From the NCBI GenBank assembly GCA_963820825.1, contig CAWGBN010000008.1, positions 162,011 through 226,010 on the forward strand: 64,000 nt of DNA. Reading direction: 5' to 3'. A program made the position numbers and the translations under genes. The notes beneath the pieces were generated by a model. It did no database searches. It was not told where the DNA came from and worked only from the letters and a program-made list of their open reading frames with translations. Positions 7,231 through 47,844 of the stretch are shown here, piece by piece (within the stretch, counting starts at the first letter, position 1; each line of letters starts with the position of its first letter). Source of the stretch: Vulcanimicrobiota bacterium (GTDB taxonomy: Bacteria > Vulcanimicrobiota > Vulcanimicrobiia > Vulcanimicrobiales > Vulcanimicrobiaceae).

Positions 7231-7235
7231 CGATC

Positions 7236-12048: not shown

Positions 12049-12141
12049 TGCTTATCCTCTTTTGCCGATTGCGTTGGTTCGAAGCTATCGCCCCGGAGTG
12101 TCAACTGTATGGCACAGATGTTGCCGAAAGGCTGCCCCCTC

Positions 12142-32670: not shown

Positions 32671-32673
32671 CGC

Positions 32674-34053: not shown

Positions 34054-34068
34054 TGGAGCCGGTGGAGT

Positions 34069-35865
34069 TTAGCCTTCGGCGGGCGCCGGGCCTGCCGCGG
34101 GTCGCCAGAGACGGCGTCCGATCACGAGGAGCCCGACGACCGCCGCCGCGGCGACCGCGCTCCAGACTAGACCTTGCGCCGGGCGGCCGTAGACGAAGGC
34201 GCCGGCCGCGAAGAGCGCGCCGTAGACCGAGGCTAGGCCGAGCACCCACCCGGCAAGCGCGAGCGTCATCGAATCGGGTGAGGCCGGCAGATCGCACTCG
34301 CGGCGAATCTTCGCCCACCCGGGACCCGCCGGACGGACGCGCGCGTAGAACGAGGCGAGCACGCTGCGCTCGACCGGCGGCGTGCAGTACGTTACCGCGA
34401 TCCACACGACGGTGGTCACGGCGATGGTCGTCAAGAGCACGGTCGTCGTCGCGGCGGTGTGACCGAGTTTGGCGGAGACGAAGAAGGCGACTGAGACGAC
34501 GAACGACGAGAGCATCGCGCTGACCTCGCTCCACGCGTTGATCCGCCACCAGAACCAGCGCAATAAGTAGATCAAGCCCGTTCCCGCTCCGATCGAGAGC
34601 AGCAGGTTGAAAGCATTCTTCGCGTTGTCGAGCGCGAGCGTGAAGAGCACGCCGAGCGCCATCAACAGCGCGGTGACCAGCCGTCCGGCAAAGACCAGCT
34701 CGCGTTGGGTGGAGTTCGGACGAATGAAGCGCTGGTAGAAATCGTGCACGAGATACGAGGTGCCCCAGTTGAGATGGGTCTCGATCGTCGAGCGATAGGC
34801 GGCGAAGATTCCCGCGACCATGAAGCCCGCGAATCCGGCGGGCAAGTACACCAGCATCGCCGGATAGGCGATGTCGTTGCCGATCAAGTTCGGCGCCACG
34901 CCGGGAAAGCGCAGTTGAATATCGTGCAGCGTCGGATAGACGATCGTCGAGGCGAGAGCGACGACGATCCACGGCCACGGCCGCAGTGCGTAGTGCATCA
35001 CCTGAAAGGCGAAGGTGCCGAAGAGCGCATCCGATTCCGTCTTCGCGGCGAGCATGCGCTGCGCGACGTAGCTGCCGCCGCCCGGTTCCGCGCCGGGATA
35101 CCAGACCGACCACCAGACCACCGTGAGCGGGATGACGAAGATGCCTAGCGCCGTCGGCCAGTCTTTGAAGTTCGGTAATATCGCCAGCGCGCTCGGATTG
35201 GCGCGCGTGAAATGAGCGATGAGGCCGTGCAGACCGCCGACGCCGGGCGCGTGGATCGCGAAGTAGGCCGCGGCGAACGCCGAGGTTATCGTGATGCAGA
35301 ACTGGATCGTGTCCGTCACCATGACGCCCCAGAGTCCCGCCGTCGCGGCAAAGATGATGGGCACGACGACCGAGATCGCGAGCGTCTCGGCGCGCGGCCA
35401 GCCGAAGAGAACGCCGGCAATCTTCACCAACGCCAAGTTGACCGTTGCGATGATCCAGCAGTTGAAGAATAGGCCGAGATAGAGCGCGCGAAAGCCGCGC
35501 ACGAACGATGCCGCGGGCCCGGCGTAGCGCAGCTCGTAGAACTCGAGATCGGTCAGAACGTTCGAACGGCGCCAGAGCCGCGCGTAAAAGAAGACCGTCG
35601 CCATACCGGTGAGCAGGAACGACCACCAGACCCAGTTCTCGGCGACGCCCCCGTCGCGCACCAGATTGGTGACGAGGTTCGGCGTATCGGTCGAGAAGGT
35701 CGTGGCGACGAGCGATATCCCGATGAGCCACCACGGTGCCGCGCGGCCGGCCGCAAAGAACTCGGTGATGTTGCGCCCGGCTCGCCGCGCCAGCACGATC
35801 GCCGGCACGAAGCTCACGCCCAAGGAAACGACGACGATAACCCAGTCGAGCGTCGTTAAGTGCAC
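34069..35865 (-). CDS. sodium:solute symporter (SSS) family transporter
   Basis: 598 aa, more than 12 TM segments, GGxxxxW N-terminal SSS pattern; start overlaps the flhA stop by 10 nt. Confidence 0.8.
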   Translation of the reverse strand: MHLTTLDWVIVVVSLGVSFVPAIVLARRAGRNITEFFAAGRAAPWWLIGISLVATTFSTDTPNLVTNLVRDGGVAENWVWWSFLLTGMATVFFYARLWRRSNVLTDLEFYELRYAGPAASFVRGFRALYLGLFFNCWIIATVNLALVKIAGVLFGWPRAETLAISVVVPIIFAATAGLWGVMVTDTIQFCITITSAFAAAYFAIHAPGVGGLHGLIAHFTRANPSALAILPNFKDWPTALGIFVIPLTVVWWSVWYPGAEPGGGSYVAQRMLAAKTESDALFGTFAFQVMHYALRPWPWIVVALASTIVYPTLHDIQLRFPGVAPNLIGNDIAYPAMLVYLPAGFAGFMVAGIFAAYRSTIETHLNWGTSYLVHDFYQRFIRPNSTQRELVFAGRLVTALLMALGVLFTLALDNAKNAFNLLLSIGAGTGLIYLLRWFWWRINAWSEVSAMLSSFVVSVAFFVSAKLGHTAATTTVLLTTIAVTTVVWIAVTYCTPPVERSVLASFYARVRPAGPGWAKIRRECDLPASPDSMTLALAGWVLGLASVYGALFAAGAFVYGRPAQGLVWSAVAAAAVVGLLVIGRRLWRPAAGPAPAEG

Positions 35866-37910
35866 GCTAGCGCGTTCGGTTCGTCCTCTGCGATGACCTC
35901 GGCCGGGGCGAGTGCGATCTCGTTGGGAAGCTCGCCGTAGGCGTAGACGCTCACGCGAATGCCCGAGCGCTGCAAGAAATCGGCGAGCACGGGACGCAGC
36001 GATGCGGTGCAGACGACCGCGGCGCGTTCGCGCGGCACTTCAGCAGCATACGCTTCGATGCGGGCGCGCAGGGCGAGCGCCGTTGCGGGGTCGAGCCCCT
36101 CCGCTCCATGACCGCACCACGCTGCAACGAGCCTTCGTTCGAACGGCGCCTCGAAGATCACCGGCTCGAGCCGGACGAGCCCGCGGCGGCGTAACAGGTC
36201 CGGTACGATCGCGCGCCGCGCGGCCTCGGCGAGCTCTTGCGGATCGGCCGTCCGCGCCTCGAGCATTGCTTCGAGCACCGCGACGGGATCGCGCGGCCAC
36301 GCGCACTCGCGCAAGAGCAGAGCGAAGGCGCGATGCACCGATCCGAACGGCAGGGCCTCGCCGCCGACTTCCTTGATCAGGGCGGGCACGGTCGCGCGCA
36401 GGTGCTCGAGCAGCGTGTGGAGCTCTTGCCGGCCGACGAGCTCGGCGGCGTGCGTTCGCGCGATCTCGGCCAAATGCGACCCGAGCACCGAGATCGGATC
36501 GAAGACGAGCGCGCCCGCATTGCTCGCGCGCTCGCGCCCCGAGGGTTGGATCCACGCCGCCGGCAATCCGTAGACGGGCTCGCGCTCGATTCGCGCGTTG
36601 AAATGCGCGAGGATCGCTTCGTCTGCGACGGCCAGGAGCCGATCGAGATCGAGCCTGCCGGCGCCTTCCAGACGGTCCCGCACGCGGATTCCGTAGGTGC
36701 GCGGATCGCGTGCGAGATCGTCGCGGAGGCGAACGCCGGGAAGCACGACGCCGATGTCCGCTGCAAGTGCGCGACGCACCTCGCCGATGCGATCGAGTAA
36801 AGCATCGGCAAGGGGTTGTGCGAGAAGCAGTGCGAGATCGGCACCGATCTCGATTGCGATCGAATCGACGCCGACGAGGCCGAGTGCGAGCTCGGGACGC
36901 CGCATCGCGTGACGCTTCGCGCGCTCGCGCGCGCCGATCGTCTCCTCTTCCCGCCGGCGGCGTTGCCGTTGCGCGGCATGAGCGACCGCGAACGCACCGG
37001 CCCCGAGAACCACGAAGAGCGGCCGCGGCAGAGCGGGAACGAGCGCGAGTGCAAGCAGGAGCGCGCCGGCGCTGCGCAGCGCATCGGGGCGTGCGAGCAG
37101 CTGTGAGGCGAGGTCGGCTCCCAACGCGCCGTCGGAAGCGACTCGCGTGACCATCATCCCCATCGCCGTCGAGATGAGAAACGCGGGCAGCGTCGTGACG
37201 AGCGCGTTGCCGATGGAGAGCAGCGCGAAGGTGTCGAGCGCGTCGAGCGGTGAGAGCGCGTGATAGGCGATACCGACGATCACGCCGCCGCAGAGATTGA
37301 GCGCCACGATCACGAGCGCGGCGACCGCATCGCCCTTGACGAACTTTCCGGCCCCGTCCATCGCGCCGTAGAAGTCCGCCTCCCGCTGCACGGCCTCTCG
37401 CTTGCGCCGCGCGCCTTCGCCGTCGAGCACGCCGGCATGAATGTCGGCGTCGATCGCCATCTGTTTTCCCGGCATCGCATCGAGCGTGAAGCGTGCCGCA
37501 ACCTCCGCGACGCGCTGCGAGCCGCTTGCAATGACGACGAACTGAATCGTCACCAAGATCGAGAAGACGATGAGCCCGACGACCAAGTTTCCGTGGACGA
37601 CAAATGCGCCGAAGGCCGGAATGATCGCGCCGACCGCGCCCGGCGTCGCACCTGAGGTCAGAATGAGGCGCGTCGCCGAAACGTCGAGCGAGAGCCGAAA
37701 GAGCGTCGCGACAAGCAGCGCGGGTGCGAAGGCCGAAAACTCGAGCGGATCGTCGACGGTCACCGAGAGCAGCAGCACGAGCGACGAGCCGAAGACGTTG
37801 ACCCCCAAGAGCACGTCGAGCAGCCATGGCGGCAGCGGAACGATCAGAATTCCGACGATCGCCAACAGCAGCGCCGCAAAGGCGTAGACCGCCCGCCTCT
37901 TCGCGTTCAC
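35856..37910 (-). CDS. flhA: flagellar/T3SS export gate protein FlhA (SctV family)
   Basis: Start GTG 37910; FHIPEP signature FTLDAMPGKQMAIDAD, GAMDGAGKFVKGD; 684 aa. Confidence 0.9.
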   Translation of the reverse strand: MNAKRRAVYAFAALLLAIVGILIVPLPPWLLDVLLGVNVFGSSLVLLLSVTVDDPLEFSAFAPALLVATLFRLSLDVSATRLILTSGATPGAVGAIIPAFGAFVVHGNLVVGLIVFSILVTIQFVVIASGSQRVAEVAARFTLDAMPGKQMAIDADIHAGVLDGEGARRKREAVQREADFYGAMDGAGKFVKGDAVAALVIVALNLCGGVIVGIAYHALSPLDALDTFALLSIGNALVTTLPAFLISTAMGMMVTRVASDGALGADLASQLLARPDALRSAGALLLALALVPALPRPLFVVLGAGAFAVAHAAQRQRRRREEETIGARERAKRHAMRRPELALGLVGVDSIAIEIGADLALLLAQPLADALLDRIGEVRRALAADIGVVLPGVRLRDDLARDPRTYGIRVRDRLEGAGRLDLDRLLAVADEAILAHFNARIEREPVYGLPAAWIQPSGRERASNAGALVFDPISVLGSHLAEIARTHAAELVGRQELHTLLEHLRATVPALIKEVGGEALPFGSVHRAFALLLRECAWPRDPVAVLEAMLEARTADPQELAEAARRAIVPDLLRRRGLVRLEPVIFEAPFERRLVAAWCGHGAEGLDPATALALRARIEAYAAEVPRERAAVVCTASLRPVLADFLQRSGIRVSVYAYGELPNEIALAPAEVIAEDEPNALACT

Positions 37911-38917
37911 GCTTCCGACGCGTTCGCTCGCGAAAGGGTCGCGACGACTTCGGCAACGGCTACGAAATGAATCGCCGGAATCGGTTCGCCGGTCCGCCCG
38001 TCGCGGAAGAGCGCGCGAGCCAGCACGACGTCCTCGACGACCGGAATGCGGTATCGTTCCGCGAGCGCGCGCACGTGCAGCGCGGCCGCCTCCGCGGCGC
38101 GCGCCAGCACGCGCGGCACGGGAACCGCCGGCGGCCGGTATTCGAGCGCGACGGCGACGTGCTGCGGGTTCGTTACGACGAACGACGCCTCTTTGAGCCG
38201 GCCGATCCCGCCGCGCAGCAACGCACGATGCAGCGCGCGCCGGCGCCCGCGCGCGATCGCATCGCCCTCTTCTTCTTTCGCCTCGCGTTTGCGCTCCTCG
38301 AAGCTCATTCGCAGATTGCGCAGCCAGGCGCGCCGTGCCGCCGCATACTCGCCGACGGCGAAGCAGAATCCGACCGTGCACGCGGCCACCGCTACCTCGC
38401 GCGCCGCGGCCCAGGCCGTCGCCGCGACGTCTCCGACCGACGACGCCTGCAACGACGCCGCGCAGCTCCACGCGACGAACGGCGTCATCGCCGCGCTCGC
38501 ACAGACGAACGCAAGCGCCGCTCGCAGCGAATGCGCGAGCGTTTCGCGAGAGAGAATTCGCTTGACGCCTTCGACCGGATTCAACCGCTCGAGTTTTACG
38601 GCGATCGAAAGTGCGGCAAGGCCGCCGTTCTGAGCGAGGTTTCCGAGCGCACCCGCCAAGGCGGCGGCGCCGACGGGTAAGCAGGCTACGGCAAGGATCA
38701 GCGCGCTTGCCGGGGTCGCTCGCCCGGCGAAACCGGCGACGAATGCATTGCTCGCCGCGGCGGCAAGCACCGGGGCAGTCGCCATCGCGGTCAAGGCCGC
38801 CGCGGCGAATGCGAGATTCGCCGCGAGCTCGCTCGAACGTGCGACGTTACCCTCGCGCAGCGCCTTGGCAATCCGGCGCGGCGTCGCCTCGAACGGTTTC
38901 TCTGCGGTATCGCTCAC
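37907..38917 (-). CDS. flhB: flagellar/T3SS export switch protein FlhB (SctU family)
   Basis: Start GTG 38917 (SDTAEKPFEATPRRIAKALREGNVARS); autocleavage-site variant NPQH in VVTNPQHVAVAL. Confidence 0.85.
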   Translation of the reverse strand: MSDTAEKPFEATPRRIAKALREGNVARSSELAANLAFAAAALTAMATAPVLAAAASNAFVAGFAGRATPASALILAVACLPVGAAALAGALGNLAQNGGLAALSIAVKLERLNPVEGVKRILSRETLAHSLRAALAFVCASAAMTPFVAWSCAASLQASSVGDVAATAWAAAREVAVAACTVGFCFAVGEYAAARRAWLRNLRMSFEERKREAKEEEGDAIARGRRRALHRALLRGGIGRLKEASFVVTNPQHVAVALEYRPPAVPVPRVLARAAEAAALHVRALAERYRIPVVEDVVLARALFRDGRTGEPIPAIHFVAVAEVVATLSRANASEA

Positions 38918-39618
38918 GGAATTTCCAACAACGGCGAAGGCAAGCGTTGCGTGACGACCGGAACCGCGATCGCGGTCGCGATCAGCGCGGCCGCGAATGC
39001 CAGCGGAAAGGCCAGCGTGAAGCTGCCGAAGCGGGGGATCACGCGCGACAGGGCGCCGAGCGCGATCTGCACGACGAAGGCCAGCGCGATCGCCGGCGCG
39101 GCAACCTGCAGTGCGACGAGCGCAATCGTCGATGCAAATGCCGCCGCGTACGCATGCCATCCCGCCGGACGCATCTCGGCAGCGAGCGGAATGCGAGCGA
39201 AGCTCTCGCTAAAGCCCAGCAGCACGCTGCGATAGGCGCCTGAGAGAAAGAATCCGCCGGTGAACGCCAGCGACCAGACGCGGCCGAAACCGCTCGGCGC
39301 GACGAGTTCCAGGCTCGGCGCGATCGCCTTCACCCCGACGTAATCGTCGACGACACGGCCGCCGGCATAGGCTGCATCGTAGATCAGCGAAGCCGTCATG
39401 CCGATCGCGCCGCCTACGAGAGACTCTAGCAGCAGCGCCGCCACGATCGTCGCGCCGTCCACTCCCTTCGCTGCCTTGCCGATGCCCGGCAGAATCGCGC
39501 CGGCAAGCGCCAGCGCAAAGCCCGCGCGAAGCGGTGCCGGTACGCTCGGATGCGAGAATCCGGGCGCGCGAAAGACGAAACCCGCGCACCGGGCGAAGAC
39601 GAGCAGCCCGGTTACCAT
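38914..39618 (-). CDS. fliR: export gate protein FliR (SctT family)
   Basis: 234 aa polytopic; FARCAGFVF..PGF N-terminus typical of FliR; position between fliQ and flhB. Confidence 0.8.
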   Translation of the reverse strand: MVTGLLVFARCAGFVFRAPGFSHPSVPAPLRAGFALALAGAILPGIGKAAKGVDGATIVAALLLESLVGGAIGMTASLIYDAAYAGGRVVDDYVGVKAIAPSLELVAPSGFGRVWSLAFTGGFFLSGAYRSVLLGFSESFARIPLAAEMRPAGWHAYAAAFASTIALVALQVAAPAIALAFVVQIALGALSRVIPRFGSFTLAFPLAFAAALIATAIAVPVVTQRLPSPLLEIP

Positions 39619-39881
39619 CCGCTATCGATCGTCGGAATCTCCGCGATCGCGCGATCGAAGAGCGCGCCGAGCAGGTGCATCGCGCCGGGCCCGAAGAGCG
39701 CAATCATCAGACCGACCGCAACGATCTTCGGAAGGAGCGTCAGCGTCTGCTCCTGCACTTGAGTCGCCGCCTGCACGACGGCGATCGCCGTTCCCACTGC
39801 AGCGGCGACGGCCAGCATCGGCAGCGCAATGGTCGCGGTCGTGATCAGCGCATCGTGCAGTAAGCCGCTGAGGACGTCCAC
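39612..39881 (-). CDS. fliQ: export gate protein FliQ (SctS family)
   Basis: 89 aa two-TM hairpin; QATQVQEQTLTLLPKI motif. Confidence 0.85.
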   Translation of the reverse strand: MDVLSGLLHDALITTATIALPMLAVAAAVGTAIAVVQAATQVQEQTLTLLPKIVAVGLMIALFGPGAMHLLGALFDRAIAEIPTIDSGW

Positions 39882-39915
39882 GCCTCAACGGTAGCGGTGC
39901 GCCGTTACGCGCGCG

Positions 39916-40827
39916 TTACCGGCTTGTTATTGCGCCGGAATCGGCAAAGGCCGGGCGCCAGGCGCTCGCGGCCAAGAGCGACGAGACGATCGCCCTCGTC
40001 GCCGGCGAGCGATTGAGCGTATAAAAATGAATTCCCGGAACGCCGGCCTGGAGCAACGCGAGTACCTGCATGGAAGCGTACGCGACGCCGAGATCTTCCA
40101 CCGCCTTATCGTCTCCCTTGCGCGACTCCATCTCCACACGCAGTTTCGGCGGAATGCTCGCACCGCAGACGGCGACGAAACGCTCGATCTGGGCGAAGTT
40201 GGTGATCGGCATCAAACCGGGAAGAACCGGCACCTCGATCCCCGCGCTTCGCGCCCGCCGGGCAAACTCCAAGAAGTTGGCGTTATCGAAAAAGAGCTGC
40301 GAAACGAGAAAATCGGCGCCGGCATCGGCCTTCTGCTTGAGATGCAGCAAGTCGTCGTCGAGCGATGCCGCCTCGGGATGCTTCTCCGGATAGCAAGCCG
40401 CGCCGATGCAGAAATCGTAGTTGCGGCGCAGCATCGAGATCAGTTCGCTCGCGTGCGCGAAGCCGCCCGGAGTCTGCACGAACGGTCTCCCCGTTGGAGG
40501 ATCTCCGCGCAGCGCGAGCACGTTCTCGATGCCGGCACGCGCCAAGTCGTCGAAGAGCGCGCGCAGCTCGCCGCGATCGGCACCGATGCAAGTGACGTGC
40601 GCGACGACCGTCAGACCGATCTGCTGCTGAATCTCCTTCGCAAGTGCGACCGTGCGCGCTCGAGTCGAGCCGCCGGCACCGTAGGTGATCGAGACGAACG
40701 CGGGCCGCAGGGGCCGCAGCGCGGCGATCGTGGTAAAGAGCCGGCGCGAACCTTCGTCGTCTCGGGGCGGAAAGAACTCGAACGAGAAGAACGGCCGCTG
40801 CGTCGCAAGCGCTTCACTAATGCGCAT
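39916..40827 (-). CDS. metF: methylenetetrahydrofolate reductase
   Basis: Start ATG 40827; FSFEFFPP, SITYGAGGSTR, ALRGDPP, FYTLN motifs; full length (303 aa). Confidence 0.9.
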   Translation of the reverse strand: MRISEALATQRPFFSFEFFPPRDDEGSRRLFTTIAALRPLRPAFVSITYGAGGSTRARTVALAKEIQQQIGLTVVAHVTCIGADRGELRALFDDLARAGIENVLALRGDPPTGRPFVQTPGGFAHASELISMLRRNYDFCIGAACYPEKHPEAASLDDDLLHLKQKADAGADFLVSQLFFDNANFLEFARRARSAGIEVPVLPGLMPITNFAQIERFVAVCGASIPPKLRVEMESRKGDDKAVEDLGVAYASMQVLALLQAGVPGIHFYTLNRSPATRAIVSSLLAASAWRPAFADSGAITSR

Positions 40828-40838
40828 CGGCTCACTCC

Positions 40839-41492: not shown

Positions 41493-41502
41493 GGAGAAAT
41501 CC

Positions 41503-41769
41503 TTACAGCGCGAGCAACTCGGTGACGCGCAAGGCAAAACGCTCTTCGACCGCGACGATCTCACCGCGCGCGATCGGCCGGTCGTTGACGAGCAGCTCGA
41601 CCGGCTGACTGATCGGGCGATCGAGTTCGACGATCGAGCCCGTACCGAGTCTCAGCACCTCGGCGACCGACATGCTGCAGGTGCCGAGCCGAACGCTGAG
41701 GTGCAGCGGCACGTGCATGAGCAAGCCGATGTTCTCGCGCGCGTCCGGCGGCTTCGCGTCTCCCGCCAT
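41503..41769 (-). CDS. fliN: FliN-like SpoA-domain C-ring protein
   Basis: 88 aa; VPLHLSVRLG...SVAEVLRLGTGSIVELD...VELLVNDRPIARGEIV. Confidence 0.8.
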   Translation of the reverse strand: MAGDAKPPDARENIGLLMHVPLHLSVRLGTCSMSVAEVLRLGTGSIVELDRPISQPVELLVNDRPIARGEIVAVEERFALRVTELLAL

Positions 41770-41775
41770 CGCCGA

Positions 41776-42558
41776 CTAGATCGCTTCGCGAACGGCGTCG
41801 ACGAAGAACGCGAATCGTCCGTTGCGCGCGCCGCCGCTTCCACGCGCGATCCGCCGGCCATGTGCCGTCAGTTCTCCCCGCTGGAAGGCCGTGGGATCGA
41901 TCGGCATCGTCGCTCCGACGGTCAGGCGGGTAATCGCTTCCGCTTGCGTCGTACCGAGATCGAGTGTCGCGCGAACCGGCAGCTCGACGGCGCTGAGGTG
42001 GGCGGCTTCGAGGCAGCCCCGCGTCTCGGGCGACGGATCGCGCGAGAGCGCGATGCCGATGCGCGCACGCACCGGCTCTTCGACCGAGAGCTCGAAGTAG
42101 GTGACAAAGCCGTCGATTGCGGCGGCGCGTTCGATCGCGCGGCCATCGCGCGTTCCGCAGACGGCGCTGAAGTTCGTTGCGATCCCGGCGACGAGCCGAT
42201 CCAACACGTCACATTCGATCGGCGAGAGCCCGCGCTCGACCGGTGCTGCCGGCGATTCGCCGAAGAGCGCCGACGCGAGCGCGCCGGCATCGCAGGCGCG
42301 AAGGACGATCGCCGCATCGGCAACCTCACCGCGCACGCGATAGAGACGCGCATTGCAAAGAATCGCGCGCCACGCCTGCGGCGCAGGGATGAGCGGCGCG
42401 AAGAGCCGCATGGCAACGGCTACGCCGAGCAGGGAGCTCAAGGTTTCGCGAACGCCGTTGGCTACGACGCATGCAGCGCTGATCGGTAACGACGAACGCG
42501 TTTCGAATCGGGCTTCTTTCAAGCGTCTTCCGGAAGGGGGAAAGCCCAGCGACTTCAT
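41776..42558 (-). CDS. FliM/FliY/SctQ-like C-ring protein (divergent) with C-terminal SpoA-like domain
   Basis: Position upstream of fliN; C-terminus LPVRATLDLG...ITRLTVGATMPID...GELTAHGRRIARGS resembles the SpoA fold; no CheY-binding N-terminal peptide seen. Confidence 0.5.
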   Translation of the reverse strand: MKSLGFPPSGRRLKEARFETRSSLPISAACVVANGVRETLSSLLGVAVAMRLFAPLIPAPQAWRAILCNARLYRVRGEVADAAIVLRACDAGALASALFGESPAAPVERGLSPIECDVLDRLVAGIATNFSAVCGTRDGRAIERAAAIDGFVTYFELSVEEPVRARIGIALSRDPSPETRGCLEAAHLSAVELPVRATLDLGTTQAEAITRLTVGATMPIDPTAFQRGELTAHGRRIARGSGGARNGRFAFFVDAVREAI

Positions 42559-43277
42559 TTGAGCAGATCCATCGTGGTCTTGCCGAGGTGCACTTTGGCG
42601 GCTTCGGCGGCTTGCAAGGCATCGAAGGCCAAGTACGCTTCCTTCAATCGCACGAGGCTTTCGTCAACGTCGATCCGGCTGCGTTCGCGTCGCATCGGTA
42701 CGAGCGATCCAAAGGTTGCGTCGCCGGCGAGCCCGACCTCGGCGCTGACGCCGGCCGGGGCGACGGACCGGCCGCCTTCGCTCGTCTGCAGACGCGTACC
42801 GGCGGGGAATCGCGCGAGTACGATTCGACCGGCGACGACGCGCTGCAGCTCTCTCGCTCCACTGCGCGGATCGACGATCTCCCGCCGGTAAGTTAGGCTG
42901 CCGTCGGCTTCGATCCCGACGTCGCGAACGCGCCCCAGTGCAACGTCGACCGGATCGACCGCGAGCTCGTCGAGTGCGCCGCCGGGCGCCCGTAGGCCGA
43001 GAATCGGAGTGCCGTTGCTGCCGACTAACCGTCCGCCGTGCAGCGCGAAGGACCCGTCGCGGGTGTACGATCGCTGCCCGCGTTCGTCGGCGGTGATAAA
43101 GTACGCGCCTTCGGGAGCGGCGACGGCGAGCGGCTCGAGCGTGAAATCGGAGAGAGGCGCGGGCGTGGCAACGTCGTCGTGCATCGGCAGCGCACCCGGC
43201 GTGTAGGCACGACGAACGTCGGCGGCGCGTTCGGCGATTCGATCGAGCGCGGCGCTCAGCGTCGAGTTCAGGAACAT
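42555..43277 (-). CDS. flagellar hook/rod family protein (FlgE/FlgF/FlgG-like), short
   Basis: DGSF..GGRLVGSNGTPILG core and C-terminal helix RIDVDESLVRLKEAYLAFDALQ like the rod/hook C-terminal heptads; occupies the flgE slot. Confidence 0.55.
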   Translation of the reverse strand: MFLNSTLSAALDRIAERAADVRRAYTPGALPMHDDVATPAPLSDFTLEPLAVAAPEGAYFITADERGQRSYTRDGSFALHGGRLVGSNGTPILGLRAPGGALDELAVDPVDVALGRVRDVGIEADGSLTYRREIVDPRSGARELQRVVAGRIVLARFPAGTRLQTSEGGRSVAPAGVSAEVGLAGDATFGSLVPMRRERSRIDVDESLVRLKEAYLAFDALQAAEAAKVHLGKTTMDLLK

Positions 43278-43867
43278 GCGACCGCTCCGATCGCGCAGAA
43301 CTCAACGCCTCGAGCCGCGAGCGCGATCCGCGCCTGCGAGAGCGCACGCGCGACGACGTTGCGGAGCTCCGGGCGGCAGATGGCGAGCAGCGTCGTTCGC
43401 CCAGCGCTCGTCTGCAAGATGACGTGGACGCGAGCGCTGCCGCGCCCGAGCGAAAACGTCGCCCTCTTCGGGTTGCCGCCGGATGCGCTGAATGCGCGCT
43501 CGATTCGTTCGGCGAGCCGTCCGCGGCCGGCGCTGCGGTGGAGCGGAGTTGCGCTCTCGCGGCCGGGAGCACTCGCGATACGCTTCGTTCTTATCGCAGG
43601 CGGCCGAAGGATCTCTGAATTGCGGCGCAACGATGGCGCCGCGTTTTCGCGCCGGGCCGCGAGCGGATGCGCGCGCGCGCTTGCGGCCGTCGGGACGGCT
43701 CTCGGTTTTGCCGATTGCGAAGCCATGCCCAGCGCCGAATACCACGCCTGTGAGAGCGCGCGCCGGTCGATCGCGCCCAGCGGCGCCGCCAAGATGCTGA
43801 CCTCGAGCTGATGCGTCATCATGGAACCGATCATCGCAACGGCATATGAGCGACCGCTCAACGTCAC
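43268..43867 (-). CDS. hypothetical, possible FliK/SctP-like ruler (T3S4-like C-terminus)
   Basis: Sits at the fliJ/fliK position; C-terminus RVHVILQTSAGRTTLLAICRPELRNVVARALSQARIALAARGVEF resembles the FliK C-terminal domain pattern. Confidence 0.35.
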   Translation of the reverse strand: MTLSGRSYAVAMIGSMMTHQLEVSILAAPLGAIDRRALSQAWYSALGMASQSAKPRAVPTAASARAHPLAARRENAAPSLRRNSEILRPPAIRTKRIASAPGRESATPLHRSAGRGRLAERIERAFSASGGNPKRATFSLGRGSARVHVILQTSAGRTTLLAICRPELRNVVARALSQARIALAARGVEFCAIGAVACS

Positions 43868-44907
43868 GTTGCCGAGTTGAGAACGAGGAGCTCGGCGATC
43901 GCTCGCAACTCCGCGACGGTCTCGACATCAGCCGATGCGAGGCGGCTCTGGCGAAGGAAGGCTTCGACGCGGTTCTCCGCCGCGATCGCCGCCGCAATCG
44001 AACGACCCTGCGGAATGATGCCGAGTGAACGCGCATCCTCAACGCGATCGAGCGCCGCAATGGCTGCGCGCACGAGCATGGCATCGGTTTGGTGCGCTTC
44101 GCCGACGACCGCATCCATCGTGCGGCTCGCGCTGGCCGCAACGTCGACGGCCGGGAACCTTCCGGCGTCGGCGAGGCGCGCGCAGAGCGCGATATGTCCG
44201 TCCAAGAGCGAGCGCGCCGCCTCGCTCACCGGATCGCGTGCGTCGCCATCTTGAATCACCGTCGCAACGAGCGTGATCGAACCGCCGGAGAGTTCGCCGG
44301 CAACTTCTATGAGACGCGCCATCTCCGCGAAGACGCTGGGCGGATAGCCGCCGCGGCCCGCGCTCTCGCCGGCCGCGATCCCGATCTCGCGCAGCGCCGC
44401 TGCAAACCGTGCCAGACTGTCGAGGATGAGCAGCACGTGCAGTCCCCGTTCGCGCAGCGCGCCGGCATGTGCGAAAGCGACGTGAGCGGCCCGTACGCGT
44501 TCGTGCGCCCCGCGATCGCTGGTGGCGCAGACGACGGTCGTTCGCCGGTCGCAGCCTTCGATCCAAAGCTGTGCTTCGCGGCCGCGTTCACCGACGAGCG
44601 CGACGACGACGGCATCCGCGGCACATCCCGCGACGATCGTTTCGATCAACGTCGTCTTTCCGGCACCCGGCGGCCCGAAGATGCCGACGCGCGCGCCGCG
44701 TCCGATCGTCAGCAACGCGTCGACGACGCGGATCCCGGTCCAGAGTGGTACGGCGATCGGCGCACGCTGCGCGGGCGCCGGAGGGTGAAGCTCGACGGCG
44801 ACGGTGCGCCCCTGCAAGGGCTTACCGCCGTCGAGCGGCAGACCCCACGCATCGATCGCTCGTCCGAACGCACAGGTCCCTAAAGCAAGGCGGTGCGGCG
44901 CGGTCAC
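43864..44907 (-). CDS. fliI: flagellar/T3SS ATPase FliI (SctN family), N-terminally short
   Basis: Walker A GPPGAGKT, Walker B LLILDSLARFA, GGYPPSVF, SITLVATV; only 347 aa. Confidence 0.9.
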   Translation of the reverse strand: MTAPHRLALGTCAFGRAIDAWGLPLDGGKPLQGRTVAVELHPPAPAQRAPIAVPLWTGIRVVDALLTIGRGARVGIFGPPGAGKTTLIETIVAGCAADAVVVALVGERGREAQLWIEGCDRRTTVVCATSDRGAHERVRAAHVAFAHAGALRERGLHVLLILDSLARFAAALREIGIAAGESAGRGGYPPSVFAEMARLIEVAGELSGGSITLVATVIQDGDARDPVSEAARSLLDGHIALCARLADAGRFPAVDVAASASRTMDAVVGEAHQTDAMLVRAAIAALDRVEDARSLGIIPQGRSIAAAIAAENRVEAFLRQSRLASADVETVAELRAIAELLVLNSAT

Positions 44908-45377
44908 GCCAACGCGGCGAGCGCCGCGTCGAGGCGCGCGGAGAGCGTTACGTCGATCGTTCCGCTTCGCAACTGGAGCGCAACGTCGCCCCGCTCCAAC
45001 GTGCGGTCGGCAACTCGTTCGAACTCAATCTCGTGCAGCGCGGCGAGGTCGTCGGGATGGACGCGGACCGCGAGCACGTTCTCGCATTCGAACCGATTGC
45101 AGGCCGCCGCGACGATCGCGCGGATCTCCACCGGCCGCAGCTCGAGCTCACGCGCGAGCACGTCGCGCGCGATGCGCGGTAAGAGCTCTTCGATAGCCGC
45201 TTCGAGCGCGTCGGCAAGAGCGGCGCGAAAGCGGCGCGCCGCGCGGATCGCCTCGTCCCGATCGGTCGCGTCGGGGACGGACGCCAGGCCGTCCCGTTGC
45301 GGCGACACCGGCTCGACTGCCGGATCGCTTGGCGTCGGACGCAAGAACGCTGCCAGCGGGACGAAGGGGCTAGACAT
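44904..45377 (-). CDS. fliH: FliH/SctL-like ATPase stator/regulator
   Basis: Start ATG 45377; position between fliF and fliI; C-terminal pattern VRVHPDDL...V..D..L..G.V.L....G.IDV. Confidence 0.55.
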   Translation of the reverse strand: MSSPFVPLAAFLRPTPSDPAVEPVSPQRDGLASVPDATDRDEAIRAARRFRAALADALEAAIEELLPRIARDVLARELELRPVEIRAIVAAACNRFECENVLAVRVHPDDLAALHEIEFERVADRTLERGDVALQLRSGTIDVTLSARLDAALAALA

Positions 45378-46842
45378 GCCGCCGTAGCAGTTCGTCGGGG
45401 TTCGAGAGCAGAGGCGTGTGCCGGCGCTGCATCCGGTTGACGATCGCTTCGCGCTCGTGCGGCGGATAGAGCTCGAGAACGGCCGTCGCCGTCGCCGCGG
45501 GCAGCGCGCTGATGATCGCCGCTGCGGCGTGCGGCGGCTCCTCTTCCAGCATGCTGCGTACGCGCGCCGGCGGGAAACCGGCGGCGGCCTTCGTCGCACG
45601 ATCGACGGCCGCGCGCTCGACGAACGCCTGCACGAACGCAACTGCCGCCGGTAACGCAATCTTCGCGGCCGCAACGAATCCCGCGGCGACGATGATCGCC
45701 GGAAAGAGCGCGACGAATGCACCGTAGATCAGCCACCGGATCCTTGCGCGCGCGACCGGCGCATGGCGAAAGGCAACGGCCTCGACGGCAAGCGTGTCGC
45801 CGCGCCGGGCGTCGTAACCGAGCGCGGCAGCGGCGAGTTCGCGCACTCTGGCCAGATCCAACTCGCGCGCGCGATCGACGAAGACCGCCGCCGAGAGCCG
45901 TTTTACTCCTCCGGGCGGCGCAATCGAAAGCGCCTCGCGCGTCTCGTCCCCGCGGTCTTCGGCCTCGTCGAGTTGACGGTATCGCTTCCCGTTTGCGTCA
46001 TAGCTTTCGCTGCGGCGAGTCCGGACCACCGCCGTCCCGCTCCCGGGTGCGCGGGTCACGTCGCGTTGGGATCTTCGCGCGACCTCGTATTCCGGGCGGA
46101 CCCGCACGATTGCAGCTCCCTCACCGAACGCGGCATCGAGCGCCGATTGCAGCGATCGCTGCAGATCGGCCGGGTCGTCGCTCGTTGCGGGATCGTCGCC
46201 GAGTGCGACGCCGCGGTCGTCCAGAATTGCGACGCGTGCCGGTTCGAGTTGCGGAACGCTCGCCGCGACGAAGGACCGGATACCCGCAATCGCCTGATGC
46301 GAGAGCCGCGCACCGGGATGCAGGCGCAACCGGACCGACGCAGTCGCATCCCTGCTCGATTCGTCGGCAAACTCCGCCGGCTTGGCCGGCGCGACGATGA
46401 CTCGCGCGTCGTCGACGCCGTCGATACCGCGCAATCCGGCTTCGATATCGCCGGCAAGGCCGGCTCGCGTCTGCGCTTCGATGACGGCCTGCGGCGTGAG
46501 CGCACCGACGTTCGCCAGCGCCTCAACGGTACTCGATAGATGCGCGTGCGGAACGCCGGCCAGCGATAGGCGGAGTAAGAGATCGGCGCGACGCCGAGCA
46601 TCGACGACGACGTTATCGGTCGTCGGCGTAAACGGAACGTTCCACGCTGCGAGACGCTCCTCGACCTCCGTTCGCTGTTCGGGATAGAGCGGCGACGAGA
46701 AGAGCGCGACTCTCGTCTGATGTCCGAGGGCGAGCACAGCGATGGCAAGGACGCATGCGACGCAGAGCGCGCCACTGGTGACGTAGCGGACGGCTCGCGG
46801 CAACGTATTCCAACGAGCGAGGAGCGGCAGTACGCCGTTCAT
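45370..46842 (-). CDS. fliF: MS-ring protein FliF with extended FliG-like cytoplasmic tail
   Basis: Start ATG 46842; N-terminal TM, YscJ/FliF ring-building region (LYPEQRTEVEERLAAWNVPF, GIDGVDDARVIV), second TM, then about 80 cytoplasmic residues. Confidence 0.85.
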   Translation of the reverse strand: MNGVLPLLARWNTLPRAVRYVTSGALCVACVLAIAVLALGHQTRVALFSSPLYPEQRTEVEERLAAWNVPFTPTTDNVVVDARRRADLLLRLSLAGVPHAHLSSTVEALANVGALTPQAVIEAQTRAGLAGDIEAGLRGIDGVDDARVIVAPAKPAEFADESSRDATASVRLRLHPGARLSHQAIAGIRSFVAASVPQLEPARVAILDDRGVALGDDPATSDDPADLQRSLQSALDAAFGEGAAIVRVRPEYEVARRSQRDVTRAPGSGTAVVRTRRSESYDANGKRYRQLDEAEDRGDETREALSIAPPGGVKRLSAAVFVDRARELDLARVRELAAAALGYDARRGDTLAVEAVAFRHAPVARARIRWLIYGAFVALFPAIIVAAGFVAAAKIALPAAVAFVQAFVERAAVDRATKAAAGFPPARVRSMLEEEPPHAAAAIISALPAATATAVLELYPPHEREAIVNRMQRRHTPLLSNPDELLRRHV

Positions 46843-46853
46843 CCGCCCGGTCC

Positions 46854-47117
46854 TTAGACTTGCATGTTCAAGACGGACTGCACGGATTGAACGACCCGCT
46901 GCGCCGTCGAGGTCGCGATTGCGAGCGCGACGTCGGCCTGGGCGCGCTCGTAGACGGCGTCCTGCAGCGTTCCGTGGCCATAGGCGAAGCCTTCCTCGGC
47001 GCGGTTGGCGCCGGTCAGCAGAGCGTCGGCGGCGTCGAGCGCTCGGGCAAAATCGTCCGCTCCGACGGTTCGGGCCGCCGTCGCCGGAACGTCGGGGACG
47101 AACGGTTCGACTCTCAC
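46854..47117 (-). CDS. fliE: hook-basal body complex protein FliE
   Basis: 87 aa; FARALD...A....G.....AV....A....A....QRVVQSVQSVLNMQV like the FliE C-terminus; position after flgC. Confidence 0.7.
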   Translation of the reverse strand: MRVEPFVPDVPATAARTVGADDFARALDAADALLTGANRAEEGFAYGHGTLQDAVYERAQADVALAIATSTAQRVVQSVQSVLNMQV

Positions 47118-47443
47118 AGTCGCTCCAAGTCGAGCGTCTTTTCGGCCAGTCTCTTGCCGACGTCGAAGATCGAGGCATCCGACTCATACGCGCGCGACGC
47201 GTTCATCACGGCGATCATCTCGGTGAGGATGTCGACGTTTCTTCCGCTCTCGCTGCGCGTGCCGACGAAGTCGACGCGGGCGTCGTCGGGGTCGCCCTCG
47301 ATGCGAAAGAGCGGAATCAATCGGGAATACTCGGCGTTCGGGCCTGCCGCCTCGGCGGCGGCGACGTTGCGAGCAGCCACGTCCAGCGCCGCTCGCTGCG
47401 CATCCATTCCGGCCGCCGCGGCGTCGAGCAGCTCGATCCTCAT
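47114..47443 (-). CDS. flgC: proximal rod protein FlgC (short)
   Basis: N-terminal AGMDAQRAALDVAARNVAAAEA and C-terminal VDILTEMIAVMNASRAYESDASIFDVGKRL match rod-family terminal helices. Confidence 0.75.
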   Translation of the reverse strand: MRIELLDAAAAGMDAQRAALDVAARNVAAAEAAGPNAEYSRLIPLFRIEGDPDDARVDFVGTRSESGRNVDILTEMIAVMNASRAYESDASIFDVGKRLAEKTLDLERL

Positions 47444-47658
47444 TTTGCGACCGCCTTAATCTCTGCAAAGCGAGCGCGTTGCGCGGAGAGCAGCGCCTCG
47501 GTGAAGATCGCAGCTTGCGCCGTCGCCGCAAGCGCAGCGTCGGCGGAGCGGCCGGCGTTCTCGCCCGCATTGGCTCGGGCAACCGCGGCCTGCGCATCGT
47601 TGAGACGCGTCCGGGACGCCAAGAGTGCATCGCGCAGGGTATCACCGACGTCAAACAT
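47440..47658 (-). CDS. small helical protein in the flgB position (FlgB-like assignment tentative)
   Basis: 72 aa, first gene of the operon, ATGA overlap with flgC; lacks a clear rod N-terminal motif. Confidence 0.35.
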   Translation of the reverse strand: MFDVGDTLRDALLASRTRLNDAQAAVARANAGENAGRSADAALAATAQAAIFTEALLSAQRARFAEIKAVAK

Positions 47659-47817
47659 GCGGAGAGTTTAGCAGCGCCGAGTGGCCGCCAGCCGTACCCG
47701 AGATGGACGCCATGTGACGTGAGAGGGCGATGAGGAACGAGTTAGCAAGCACTGATTCTGGGGTAAGAATCCTGTGAAACCGCTAGCGAGCGCCCTTATA
47801 GGCCGGTGCGGCTAGGC

Positions 47818-47823
47818 TATAAT
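47818..47823 (+). promoter_or_regulatory. candidate sigma70-type -10 box (TATAAT) for the YXWGXW gene
   Basis: Perfect TATAAT about 20 nt upstream of GGGAGG-N5-GTG; no good -35 seen. Confidence 0.35.
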
Positions 47824-47844
47824 ACTCTCGGAAAGGGAGGATCA

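What the first reader, a model, noticed from the sequence alone, without database searches (positions are those of the whole stretch)
35856..47658. Stripped-down flagellar-type T3SS operon: basal body and export gate without rotor, stator or filament genes
Seen: 16 co-directional genes with seven 4-nt ATGA/GTGA start-stop overlaps (flgB-like/flgC, flgC/fliE, fliH/fliI, fliI/fliK-like, hook-like/fliM-like, fliR/flhB, flhB/flhA). The order is flgB-like, flgC, fliE, fliF, fliH, fliI, fliK-like, FlgE/G-like, fliM-like, fliN, fliP, metF, fliQ, fliR, flhB, flhA. Established: this matches the Bacillus-type fla/che operon order as I recall it (flgB flgC fliE fliF fliG fliH fliI fliJ ylxF fliK flgD flgE fliL fliM fliY cheY fliO fliP fliQ fliR flhB flhA). 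At their expected slots fliG, fliJ, flgD, fliL, cheY and fliO are absent, with junctions too tight to hide them. The flanks (a YXWGXW protein upstream; an SSS transporter and secDF downstream) contain no motAB, flagellin, fliD, flgKL, flhFG or fliA. Several retained parts are miniaturised (72-aa FlgB-like, 109-aa FlgC, 240-aa hook-like, 347-aa FliI). Its composition looks the same as the surrounding GC-rich genome, so it does not look recently acquired. Inference: a non-rotating, flagellum-derived secretion or basal-body machine. It could resemble the intermediates postulated between flagella and injectisomes, or a secretion-only basal body.
Basis: partly seen in the sequence, partly recalled or inferred. 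Interest (0 to 1): 0.85.

Follow-up and report, generated by a model that had tools for sequence, protein, structure and literature searches.

The report
Motor-less flagellar secretion machine in Eremiobacterota
A soil bacterium of the phylum Eremiobacterota keeps a tightly packed, well-conserved set of flagellar base and protein-export genes, but the torque-generating rotor domain is deleted and no stator or filament genes lie nearby, so it probably builds a non-rotating, flagellum-derived secretion or envelope-spanning machine rather than a swimming organelle.

Summary
On the minus strand, 47658..35856 holds 16 tightly packed co-directional genes: 15 flagellar-type T3SS/basal-body genes plus metF. 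All seven 4-nt start/stop overlaps are present. The organism is Candidatus Cybelea (Eremiobacterota/Vulcanimicrobiota).

The same gene order, metF included, recurs in 80 related species-level genomes. Gene lengths are near-constant and dN/dS is 0.06-0.39, so this is a maintained machine, not decay.

- fliG is not simply absent. About 50 residues of the FliG middle domain are fused to the C-terminus of FliF, and they are the best-conserved part of FliF. FliG-N and the torque-generating FliG-C are gone.
- The "FliM-like" gene is a true FliM (CheC-like middle domain plus SpoA domain). I saw no CheY-binding N-terminal motif.
- The gene string continues into an SSF transporter and secDF.

The window's sublineage is the most reduced. 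It has lost an SLT lytic transglycosylase and a periplasmic aspartyl-protease-like gene that most relatives keep, and its FliI lacks the N-terminal domain.

The two nearest outgroup FlhAs whose loci were informative sit in canonical flagellar operons. The only cultured relative has no flagella and no flagellin gene. Whole-genome absence of motAB, fliC and other flagellar genes could not be tested here.

Verdict: a new variant of the known kind "flagellum-derived, non-motility T3SS". It appears undescribed for this phylum.

The parts
47440..47658 (-). 72-aa protein in the flgB slot (possible minimal FlgB; unassigned)
   Evidence: No Pfam or PDB sequence hit. It is 70-72 aa in 22 of the 24 sampled orthologues, with mean column identity 65%. 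dN/dS is 0.12-0.19. hhalign places its N-terminus in register with the FlgC N-terminus, E 0.003, probability 10%.
47114..47443 (-). FlgC, short form (109 aa)
   Evidence: Pfam Flg_bbr_C. NCBIfam FlgC scores 50.9 bits, below its cut-off. Conserved in relatives.
46854..47117 (-). FliE (87 aa)
   Evidence: Pfam FliE, 28 bits, above cut-off.
45370..46842 (-). FliF (MS-ring protein, 490 aa) with a FliG middle-domain remnant fused at the C-terminus. The remnant is about residues 425-472, i.e. about 45424-45567, inside the modelled C-terminal 100 aa at 45373-45672.
   Evidence: Pfam YscJ_FliF, YscJ_FliF_C and FliG_M (27.3 bits vs cut-off 25). A profile of the C-terminal 100 aa puts FliG chains at its eleven best PDB matches, aligned over the EHPQ region. 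The AlphaFold model's best Foldseek matches are FliG middle domains, rmsd 1.2-1.6 A over 47-51 columns. This is the most conserved stretch of FliF.
44904..45377 (-). FliH (157 aa)
   Evidence: Pfam FliH. The independent gene call on a second contig gives the same length.
43864..44907 (-). FliI ATPase lacking the N-terminal domain (347 aa)
   Evidence: Pfam ATP-synt_ab + T3SS_ATPase_C. It aligns from residue 4-5 onto residue about 90-108 of full-length FliI. Walker A and B motifs are intact. Among relatives, 20 of 55 have about 410 aa and 34 have about 347 aa.
43268..43834 (-). FliK-like protein (about 188 aa; the ORF could start at 43867)
   Evidence: It sits in the fliK slot. The N-terminal about 35 aa and C-terminal about 60 aa are conserved around a variable linker. 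Two of 26 orthologues weakly hit Pfam Flg_hook, the only family hit more than once. No PDB sequence hit. dN/dS is 0.26-0.38.
42555..43277 (-). Rod/hook-family protein without a D2 domain (240 aa)
   Evidence: Pfam FlgE/F/G D1. The profile hits FlgE (1e-15), FlgG (1e-8) and FlgF (2e-4) in the PDB.
41776..42558 (-). FliM (260 aa): CheC-like middle domain plus C-terminal SpoA domain. I saw no CheY-binding N-terminal motif.
   Evidence: Pfam FliMN_C. The AlphaFold model has pLDDT 92-96 across most of residues 31-170, dipping to 75-85 in three ten-residue blocks. Foldseek matches Salmonella FliM at E 4e-13 and FliM middle domains at TM 0.55-0.63. The N-terminal 22 residues are disordered and variable.
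41503..41769 (-). FliN (88 aa)
   Evidence: Pfam FliMN_C, 88 bits. NCBIfam fliN scores 92 bits, above cut-off.
40839..41492 (-). FliP
   Evidence: Pfam FliP. NCBIfam fliP scores 222 bits, above cut-off.
39916..40827 (-). MetF (methylenetetrahydrofolate reductase), a housekeeping gene lodged between fliP and fliQ
   Evidence: Pfam MTHFR, 309 bits. It holds the same position in relatives. dN/dS is 0.06-0.08.
39612..39881 (-). FliQ
   Evidence: Pfam Bac_export_3.
38914..39618 (-). FliR
   Evidence: Pfam Bac_export_1.
37907..38917 (-). FlhB, with an NPQH autocleavage-type motif
   Evidence: Pfam Bac_export_2. The NPxH motif is present in 69 of 70 orthologues.
35856..37910 (-). FlhA
   Evidence: Pfam FHIPEP, 630 bits. 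It is 78-92% identical to the 119 other listed clusters. NCBIfam FlhA scores 595 bits against SctV 475.
31333..35865 (-). SSF transporter, SecD and SecF: a co-directional continuation of the gene string
   Evidence: Pfam. The SSF start overlaps the flhA stop by 10 nt. The same neighbours occur in L001, and secD follows flhA in L082 and L085.

Best explanation
This is a lineage-wide, vertically inherited derivative of a Terrabacteria (Bacillus)-type flagellar operon. It has been stripped of torque generation, switching and the filament, but it still builds a complete type III export apparatus on an MS ring.

Proposed assembly (inferred):
1. FliF forms the MS ring.
2. Its covalently attached FliG middle domain docks the FliM middle domain directly. 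FliM and FliN form a static C-ring or sorting platform.
3. That platform holds FliH and FliI under the FliPQR-FlhB-FlhA gate.
4. The gate exports FliE, the 72-aa protein, FlgC and the 240-aa FlgE/G-like protein, which form a short rod or hook-like tube in the periplasm. In most relatives an SLT lytic transglycosylase helps it cross the wall.
5. The FliK-like protein and the FlhB NPxH site set the tube's length and switch substrate class.

The end product is inferred to be a non-rotating, envelope-spanning conduit or anchor. It would export still-unknown proteins to the periplasm or cell surface. It does not propel the cell.

Shown: gene content, domain identities, the FliF-FliG_M fusion, conservation and purifying selection.
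Inferred: the assembly order, the FliG_M-FliM contact, secretion as the function, and absence of the missing genes elsewhere in the genome.
For: - Gene identities.
- FliF-FliG_M fusion, by three independent routes: Pfam above cut-off, a PDB profile search whose eleven best matches are all FliG chains, and Foldseek. It sits where fliG follows fliF in the ancestral order, and it is the most conserved part of FliF.
- True FliM fold.
- The hook/rod protein matches FlgE, FlgG and FlgF.
- The same 16-gene order occurs in 80 genomes, with near-constant gene lengths.
- dN/dS is 0.06-0.39 for every gene, with dS about 0.4-1.6.
- Walker motifs and NPxH are retained.
- The locus is embedded between rplM-rpsI and secDF, a core-genome setting.
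- Outgroup FlhAs at 42-43% identity lie in canonical flagellar loci with motAB, fliL, fliO and flhFG.
- V. alpinus, the only cultured member of the phylum, shows no flagella by TEM and has no flagellin gene. Its gene table lists fliN, and it moves by type IV pili (PMC9758169).
- Precedents exist for flagellar T3SS loci in non-flagellate bacteria (PMC3459982; Buchnera, PMC8109811) and for a FliF-FliG_M fusion in non-flagellate Chlamydiaceae (PMC4768692).
Against: - The rest of this genome (the contig is 680 kb; only 64 kb was seen) could not be searched, so fliG, motAB, fliC, flgKL and fliD elsewhere are not excluded.
- No secreted substrate, chaperone, secretin or outer-membrane component was identified, so 'secretion' is function by analogy.
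- In the window's sublineage FliI lacks its N-terminal domain and the SLT gene is gone. That could mean function is weakening or changing.
- The FliK and FlgB assignments are weak.
- There are no expression data.
- V. alpinus may have a differently arranged cluster. fliN (WPS_28550) lies only four locus tags after ugpB (WPS_28510), so it is an imperfect proxy.
Confidence: 0.6

Rival explanations
1. This is one piece of an ordinary flagellar regulon. The missing genes (fliG, motAB, flgD, flgKL, fliD, fliC, fliS, fliA) lie elsewhere in the genome, and the cells swim under conditions not yet observed.
For: Only 64 kb of a 680-kb contig was examined. Split flagellar regulons are common. Most components score best against flagellar models. 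Chemotaxis genes exist in V. alpinus.
Against: - A FliG remnant occupies the fliG slot and lacks the N and C domains.
- I saw no CheY-binding motif at the FliM N-terminus.
- motAB, fliL and flbD are missing from their ancestral slot between the hook gene and fliM (compare).
- FlgC, the FlgB-slot protein and the hook protein are minimal.
- V. alpinus shows no flagella and has no flagellin gene; its motility is by type IV pili.
- FliI is truncated in most Cybelea-like genomes.
Confidence: 0.12
2. This is a decaying relic. The genes are leftovers of a lost flagellum with no present function, kept only because they are interleaved with essential genes (metF, secDF).
For: Losses are stepwise within the phylum: SLT, the Asp-protease-like gene and the FliI N-domain. 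A deeper lineage (L082) keeps only hook-like through flhA at this site. Most proteins fall below NCBIfam equivalog cut-offs.
Against: - All 15 genes are intact, with near-constant lengths, in about 80 species whose synonymous sites are near saturation.
- dN/dS is 0.06-0.39, including for the small unannotated genes.
- FlhA is 78-92% identical across the listed clusters.
- Catalytic and cleavage motifs are kept.
- A relic would show frameshifts and patchy loss.
Confidence: 0.06
3. The basal body is kept for a structural or other non-secretory role, for example an envelope tether, a nanotube or membrane-structure platform, or a sensor. Export would serve only self-assembly.
For: No effector, chaperone or outer-membrane pore gene lies in or near the operon in any locus. 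Flagellar export-core proteins have been linked to nanotubes and to a 'hat-shaped' inner-membrane structure (PMC9380563). The rod and length-control genes are retained.
Against: There is no direct evidence either way. Retention of the ATPase complex, the FlhB switch motif and a FliK-like ruler suggests that a second substrate class is exported after the rod.
Confidence: 0.2

Closest known systems
Bacterial flagellum of the Bacillus/Terrabacteria operon type (fla/che operon)
   Same: The gene order is flgB-slot, flgC, fliE, fliF, (fliG remnant), fliH, fliI, fliK-slot, hook gene, fliM, fliN, fliPQR, flhB, flhA. Outgroup FlhAs at 42-43% identity sit in such loci. FliP and FliN pass the flagellar equivalog cut-offs.
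   Different: - There is no FliG N or C domain.
- motAB, fliL, flbD, flgD, fliJ, fliO, cheY and flhFG are absent from the locus, and no filament genes lie in 64 kb.
- I saw no CheY-binding motif in FliM.
- The rod and hook proteins are minimal.
- Most proteins score below equivalog cut-offs.
Chlamydiaceae orphan flagellar genes, with FliF fused to the FliG middle domain (Bergeron 2016, PMC4768692)
   Same: A non-flagellate lineage in which FliF carries a C-terminal FliG_M-like domain in place of a separate FliG.
   Different: Chlamydial FliF is about 330 aa and has lost part of its periplasmic ring motifs. Only a few flagellar genes remain there, beside a full injectisome. Here FliF keeps the YscJ_FliF and FliF_C regions and sits in a complete 15-gene system with rod, FliM and FliN. 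Whether the two fusions share ancestry was not tested.
Buchnera aphidicola hook-basal bodies without filament (PMC8109811)
   Same: Flagellar basal-body and T3SS export genes are kept, while flagellin and motility are lost. A protein-export role has been proposed.
   Different: Buchnera is a tiny-genome endosymbiont in a gammaproteobacterial setting. The present case is a free-living soil phylum, with the FliG remnant fused to FliF and no L/P-ring genes seen in the locus. The Buchnera gene complement is recalled from memory and was not checked here.
Myxococcales 'needleless' T3SS* / early NF-T3SS (Abby & Rocha 2012, PMC3459982)
   Same: A T3SS lacking motility parts and a secretin. It is conserved and not decaying, and it is proposed to translocate proteins. 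It fits step one of their exaptation scenario.
   Different: The Myxococcales systems belong to the monophyletic NF-T3SS clade and carry Sct-type components. This system keeps the flagellar rod proteins FliE, FlgC and a FlgE/G-like protein plus FliM, and mostly scores higher against flagellar models. It would therefore be an independent exaptation.

Membership tests
Bacterial flagellum (motility organelle) | fT3SS export gate FliP, FliQ, FliR, FlhB, FlhA | tested here: met
   The Pfam families are all above cut-off. Flagellar NCBIfam models outscore Sct models for FlhA, FliP, FliQ and FliR, but not for FlhB.
Bacterial flagellum (motility organelle) | MS ring FliF and rod proteins FliE, FlgB, FlgC, FlgF/G | tested here: inconclusive
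   FliF, FliE, FlgC and one FlgE/F/G-family protein are present. The FlgB-slot protein has no family hit. Only one distal rod/hook paralogue is present instead of FlgF, FlgG and FlgE.
Bacterial flagellum (motility organelle) | Rotor protein FliG with a C-terminal torque-generating domain | tested here: not met
   In the locus, only a FliG_M-like segment of about 50 aa is present, fused to FliF. There is no FliG_N or FliG_C. A second fliG elsewhere in the genome was not testable.
Bacterial flagellum (motility organelle) | Stator MotA/MotB | tested here: not met
   Absent from the operon and from the scanned ORFs of the 64-kb window, and absent from the about 20-kb loci of relatives where gene calls were seen. 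The rest of the genome was not testable.
Bacterial flagellum (motility organelle) | Hook cap, junction, filament cap and flagellin (FlgD, FlgK/L, FliD, FliC) | not testable with these tools
   None lies in the window (same calls as above). V. alpinus is reported to lack flagellin and flagella (PMC9758169). This genome could not be scanned as a whole.
Bacterial flagellum (motility organelle) | Switch input: CheY-binding N-terminal peptide of FliM | tested here: not met
   The N-terminal 22 residues are variable and disordered, and the LSQxEIDxLL-type motif (recalled from memory) was not seen in the alignment.
Non-flagellar T3SS (injectisome) | Secretin SctC, outer inner-membrane ring SctD, needle SctF and inner rod SctI | tested here: not met
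   No such domains occur in the operon or window. Flagellar rod proteins are present instead. A lone 97-aa FHA protein 15 kb away hits Yop-YscD_cpl, but that is a generic FHA fold.
Non-flagellar T3SS (injectisome) | Core proteins closer to Sct than to flagellar families | tested here: not met
   Only FlhB (SctU 216 vs FlhB 183 bits) and FliI (SctN 333 vs FliI 308) lean towards Sct. FlhA, FliP, FliQ, FliR, FliN and FliF lean towards flagellar models. No rooted phylogeny was made.
Chlamydia-type FliF-FliG_M fusion | FliG middle domain fused to the cytoplasmic C-terminus of FliF | tested here: met
   description of the chlamydial case.
Chlamydia-type FliF-FliG_M fusion | Shortened FliF periplasmic region (about 330 aa), with orphan genes beside an injectisome | tested here: not met
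   FliF here is 490 aa with YscJ_FliF and YscJ_FliF_C, and it sits within a full cluster.

The most novel reading that the evidence does not exclude
Eremiobacterota carry a phylum-wide, non-rotating nanomachine that arose by an exaptation of the flagellum independent of the injectisome. It would be a static FliF-FliG_M/FliM/FliN platform, a flagellar export gate and a short length-controlled rod, used by free-living soil bacteria to export unknown proteins. It would be a living, experimentally tractable analogue (V. alpinum is cultured) of the 'motility lost, secretion kept' first step postulated for injectisome origin.
Probability: 0.45. Interest if true: 0.8.

Novelty: new variant of a known kind. 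Interest (0 to 1): 0.66.

Why it matters
Flagellum-derived secretion machines are known mainly from host-associated bacteria: injectisomes, Buchnera and Chlamydia. Here, a complete but motor-less flagellar T3SS is conserved under purifying selection across an abundant free-living soil phylum.

That would show that repurposing the flagellar base is not tied to eukaryotic hosts. It would also supply a natural minimal design in which FliG is reduced to its FliM-docking domain and fused to FliF. This is useful for understanding what the C ring does for export as opposed to rotation.

The phylum now has a cultured member with no flagella, so the idea can be tested directly by cryo-ET, knockouts and secretomics.

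A practical consequence follows for annotation. Automatic pipelines that read 'flagellar' genes in Eremiobacterota MAGs should not infer swimming motility from them.

Tried and rejected
- Looking up the window's own contig by exact protein failed for FlhA. For FliN it gave only a 6-kb twin contig without DNA, so the rest of the genome stayed out of reach.
- PDB sequence and profile searches for the 72-aa and FliK-like proteins found nothing meaningful. Per-member Pfam scans gave only two weak Flg_hook hits for the FliK-like protein and none for the 72-aa protein.
- The promoter and terminator scan gave counts no higher than shuffled sequence. No transcription-unit claim rests on it.
- Ji et al. 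2021 (ISME J), the main genomic survey of the phylum, is not held in the library. Literature searches for Eremiobacterota with flagell*, motility or type III secretion found no description of this system.
- I considered that L082 (FlhA 49% identical, further reduced cluster) might be V. alpinus. I rejected this on GC content: 62% against the published 68.4%.
- I considered reading the 97-aa FHA protein (Yop-YscD_cpl hit) as an SctD remnant. I rejected this because it is a stand-alone FHA domain 15 kb away, next to panC.
- No rooted FlhA/FliI phylogeny was built, because the representative library carries no labels. HMM score comparisons and genomic context of the nearest outgroups were used instead.

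Full report
**1. What is in the sequence**

On the minus strand from 47658 down to 35856 lie 16 co-directional ORFs. Pfam identifies them as follows:
- FlgC (C-terminal rod motif)
- FliE
- FliF
- FliH
- FliI
- a 240-aa FlgE/F/G D1-domain protein
- a 260-aa protein with a FliMN_C domain
- FliN, FliP
- a methylenetetrahydrofolate reductase (MetF)
- FliQ, FliR, FlhB and FlhA

Two ORFs have no family hit: 72 aa at the head of the string, and about 188-199 aa after fliI.

The other junctions are gaps of 6-34 nt or overlaps of 7-10 nt.

The string does not end at flhA. An SSF-family transporter starts 10 nt inside flhA, followed by secD and secF.

GC content of the region is at the upper end of the window's range.

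About 38 further ORFs of the window were scanned against Pfam. They are housekeeping or metabolic genes (rplM, rpsI, truA, lysS, greA, relA, sdh/frd, pantothenate genes and others). None is flagellar.

**2. Whose genome, and how widespread**

FlhA homologues at 78-92% identity fill the top 120 clusters of a 5.8-billion-protein search. Where named, most are Candidatus Cybelea, Baltobacteraceae or Eremiobacterota.

A scan of one genome per GTDB species with FliP found 354 relatives. The best 80 loci are almost all Eremiobacterota/Vulcanimicrobiota MAGs, including six complete chromosomes.

tblastn of the 16 window proteins shows the same order in every locus long enough to judge, with metF between fliP and fliQ. 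Gene lengths are nearly invariant across the 27 loci sampled:
- the small protein: 70-72 aa in 22 of 24 sampled orthologues
- FlgC: about 109 aa
- FliF: 483-490 aa, apart from three mis-called starts
- hook-like protein: about 239 aa
- FliM: 252-271 aa

Pairwise Nei-Gojobori dN/dS against five relatives is 0.06-0.39 for all 16 genes, at dS about 0.4-1.6. This includes the unannotated ones: 72-aa protein 0.12-0.19, FliK-like 0.26-0.38.

Upstream synteny (rplM-rpsI-DUF3810) and downstream synteny (SSF-secDF-HIRAN helicase) are shared too.

This is an old, vertically inherited, selectively maintained system. It is neither a recent acquisition nor a wreck.

**3.

(a) fliG is not simply missing.
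- FliF residues 425-472 match Pfam FliG_M above its gathering score. The same hit is precomputed for nearly all FliF homologues of the clade.
- A profile of the C-terminal 100 residues from 24 species puts FliG chains at its eleven best PDB matches. It aligns 'EPPHAAAAIISALP...' with the 'EHPQTIAVVLSYLD...' stretch of the Thermotoga FliG middle domain.
- An AlphaFold model has pLDDT 80-85 over residues 40-80. Its best Foldseek matches are FliG middle domains from FliG-FliM complexes, rmsd 1.2-1.6 A over 47-51 columns, followed by MgtE N-domains. The E-values are weak because the domain is small. The three routes nevertheless agree.
- This segment is the most conserved part of FliF in the phylum.
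- It sits where fliG follows fliF in the ancestral order. The simplest history is therefore an in-frame deletion that removed the FliF tail with FliG-N, plus loss of FliG-C. By established knowledge, FliG-C is the domain that meets the stator.

(b) The 260-aa protein is a true FliM.
- Its model has pLDDT 92-96 across most of residues 31-170, dipping to 75-85 in three ten-residue blocks.
- The model matches full-length Salmonella FliM at E 4e-13, and crystal structures of FliM middle domains at TM 0.55-0.63.
- The C-terminus is a SpoA/FliN domain.
- The first 22 residues are variable and disordered, and I saw no CheY-binding peptide there. The canonical motif is recalled from memory.

(c) The 240-aa protein is a D0/D1-only member of the FlgE/FlgG/FlgF family.

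The FliK assignment rests on three things: its position, a conserved-variable-conserved layout, and two weak Flg_hook hits among 26 orthologues. The FlgB assignment rests on position and a weak, in-register hhalign match to the FlgC N-terminus. Both remain unproven.

**4. Variation within the phylum**

Among the 55 loci complete across this stretch, the genes between fliI and the FliK-like gene vary:

| Content between fliI and the FliK-like gene | Loci |
|---|---|
| SLT lytic transglycosylase + about 555-aa signal-peptide protein with an Asp_protease_2 domain hit and a second DTG-type motif | 23 |
| SLT only | 22 |
| Asp-protease-like protein only | 4 |
| neither (as in the window) | 6 |

- FliI is about 410 aa in 20 loci and about 347 aa in 34. 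The window's FliI aligns only from residue about 90-108 of full-length FliI, so it lacks the N-terminal domain.
- The fliP|metF junction holds 0-9 kb of unrelated inserts in different species. The second half of the cluster must therefore be separately transcribed at least in those species.
- A lineage with 49%-identical FlhA (L082) keeps only hook-like, a short FliM-like protein, FliN, FliPQR and FlhBA next to secD at this site, with no metF.
- The window thus shows the most reduced form of a system that has been trimmed repeatedly.

**5. Ancestry**

- FlhA representatives at 42-43% identity, among the nearest outside the clade, sit in canonical flagellar loci. One has flgE-flbD-motA-motB-fliL-fliM-fliN-fliPQR-flhBA and fliW. 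The other has fliO-fliPQR-flhBA-flhG-flhF. A third, at 43% identity, lies on a 5-kb contig too short to be informative.
- Against NCBIfam, flagellar models beat injectisome models for FlhA, FliP, FliQ, FliR, FliN and FliF. SctU and SctN models score slightly higher for FlhB and FliI.
- Only FliP and FliN pass the equivalog cut-offs. PDB comparisons agree.
- The system is flagellar in composition and origin but strongly diverged.

**6. How it most likely works**

Shown:
- the parts
- the fusion
- retention of the FliI Walker motifs and of the FlhB NPxH site, which is present in 69 of 70 orthologues
- purifying selection

Inferred from established flagellar biology: an MS ring whose fused FliG_M domains hold a static FliM/FliN ring. 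That ring positions FliH/FliI under the export gate. The gate exports FliE, the 72-aa protein, FlgC and the FlgE/G-like protein to build a short periplasmic rod. A FliK-like ruler and FlhB then switch substrate class.

The machine has no FliG-C, no stator, no FliL, no CheY input and no L/P-ring or secretin gene in sight. It should therefore not rotate, and it has no obvious outer-membrane pore. What it exports after the rod, if anything, is unknown.

In support of non-motility, V. alpinus is the only cultured member of the phylum. It has an outer membrane, shows no flagella by electron microscopy, has no flagellin gene, and moves by type IV pili. Its gene table still lists fliN (PMC9758169). 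A caveat is that its locus tags suggest a differently broken cluster.

**7. Rivals**

- An ordinary split regulon is unlikely, given the FliG remnant in the fliG slot and the V. alpinus data. It is not excluded, because the rest of this genome could not be searched.
- A functionless relic is contradicted by the conservation statistics.
- A structural or non-secretory role cannot be separated from secretion with sequence alone.

**8. Comparison with what is known**

- Flagella-like loci in non-flagellate species, and repeated exaptation of the flagellar T3SS, were noted by Abby and Rocha. They also proposed a first step of 'motility genes lost, translocation kept' on the way to injectisomes (PMC3459982).
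- Buchnera keeps basal bodies without a filament (PMC8109811).
- Chlamydiaceae have a FliF fused to a FliG middle domain (PMC4768692). All other FliF-FliG fusions found in the literature search are engineered or laboratory mutants.
- The Eremiobacterota system combines these themes in a new setting: a free-living soil phylum, with a complete gate + ATPase + rod + FliM/FliN set.
- I found no paper describing it.
- It is best filed as a new variant of a known kind. It is neither a member of the canonical flagellum, because the defining rotor and stator features are not met in the locus, nor of the injectisome family, because there is no secretin, SctD or needle.

**9. Limits**

- No whole-genome scan was possible.
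- No phylogeny was built.
- There are no expression data.
- The FlgB and FliK assignments are weak.
- The Foldseek support for the 50-residue FliG_M domain has high probability but poor E-values.

Noticed in passing
window 39916-40827 (-): metF, a housekeeping folate gene, sits between fliP and fliQ here and in the related Eremiobacterota loci sampled. The fliP|metF junction carries 0-9 kb of unrelated insertions in different species. A lineage with 49%-identical FlhA (L082) has no metF at this site.
   Followed up: partly
window 31333-35865 (-): An SSF-family transporter starts 10 nt inside the end of flhA and is followed by secD and secF. secD follows flhA even in distant relatives (L082, L085). 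The T3SS gate genes are thus physically coupled to Sec-translocon accessory genes across the lineage.
   Followed up: partly
L032:5315-7538 and equivalents in L005, L047, L049: Most relatives encode two further genes between fliI and the FliK-like gene: an SLT lytic transglycosylase, and a protein of about 555 aa with a signal peptide, an Asp_protease_2 domain hit and a second DTG-type motif. Both are absent from the whole 64-kb window.
   Followed up: partly
window 62443-62736 (-): A stand-alone 97-aa FHA-domain protein whose best Pfam hit is Yop-YscD_cpl, the cytoplasmic domain of the T3SS inner-membrane ring protein. It lies next to panC, 15 kb from the operon. This is probably a generic FHA fold.
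   Followed up: no
window 9970-11475 (-) and 12641-14098 (+): Two divergently oriented paralogues of the PF04185 phosphoesterase family (phospholipase C / acid phosphatase type) lie about 1.2 kb apart.
   Followed up: no
L019, L028, L038, L046, L075, L080 and named protein hits: Contigs carrying this Eremiobacterota-type operon are labelled Candidatus Acidoferrum, Acidiferrales, Binatia, Babeliales or Rhodospirillales in public records. These are probably binning or labelling errors.
   Followed up: no
L082 (GCA_035654355.1, DASRXC010000005.1) 5330-12070: A deep relative (FlhA 49% identical, GC 62%) keeps only hook-like, a 185-aa FliM-like protein, FliN, FliPQR and FlhBA next to secD, directly downstream of an ABC sugar transporter. 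The flgC-fliI half is not at this site.
   Followed up: partly
window 47806-48915 (+): A divergently transcribed 369-aa protein with a WXXGXW repeat lies immediately upstream of the operon. A 376-aa protein sits in the same position and orientation in L004, but its homology was not tested, and no such gene is seen at this position in L047.
   Followed up: no
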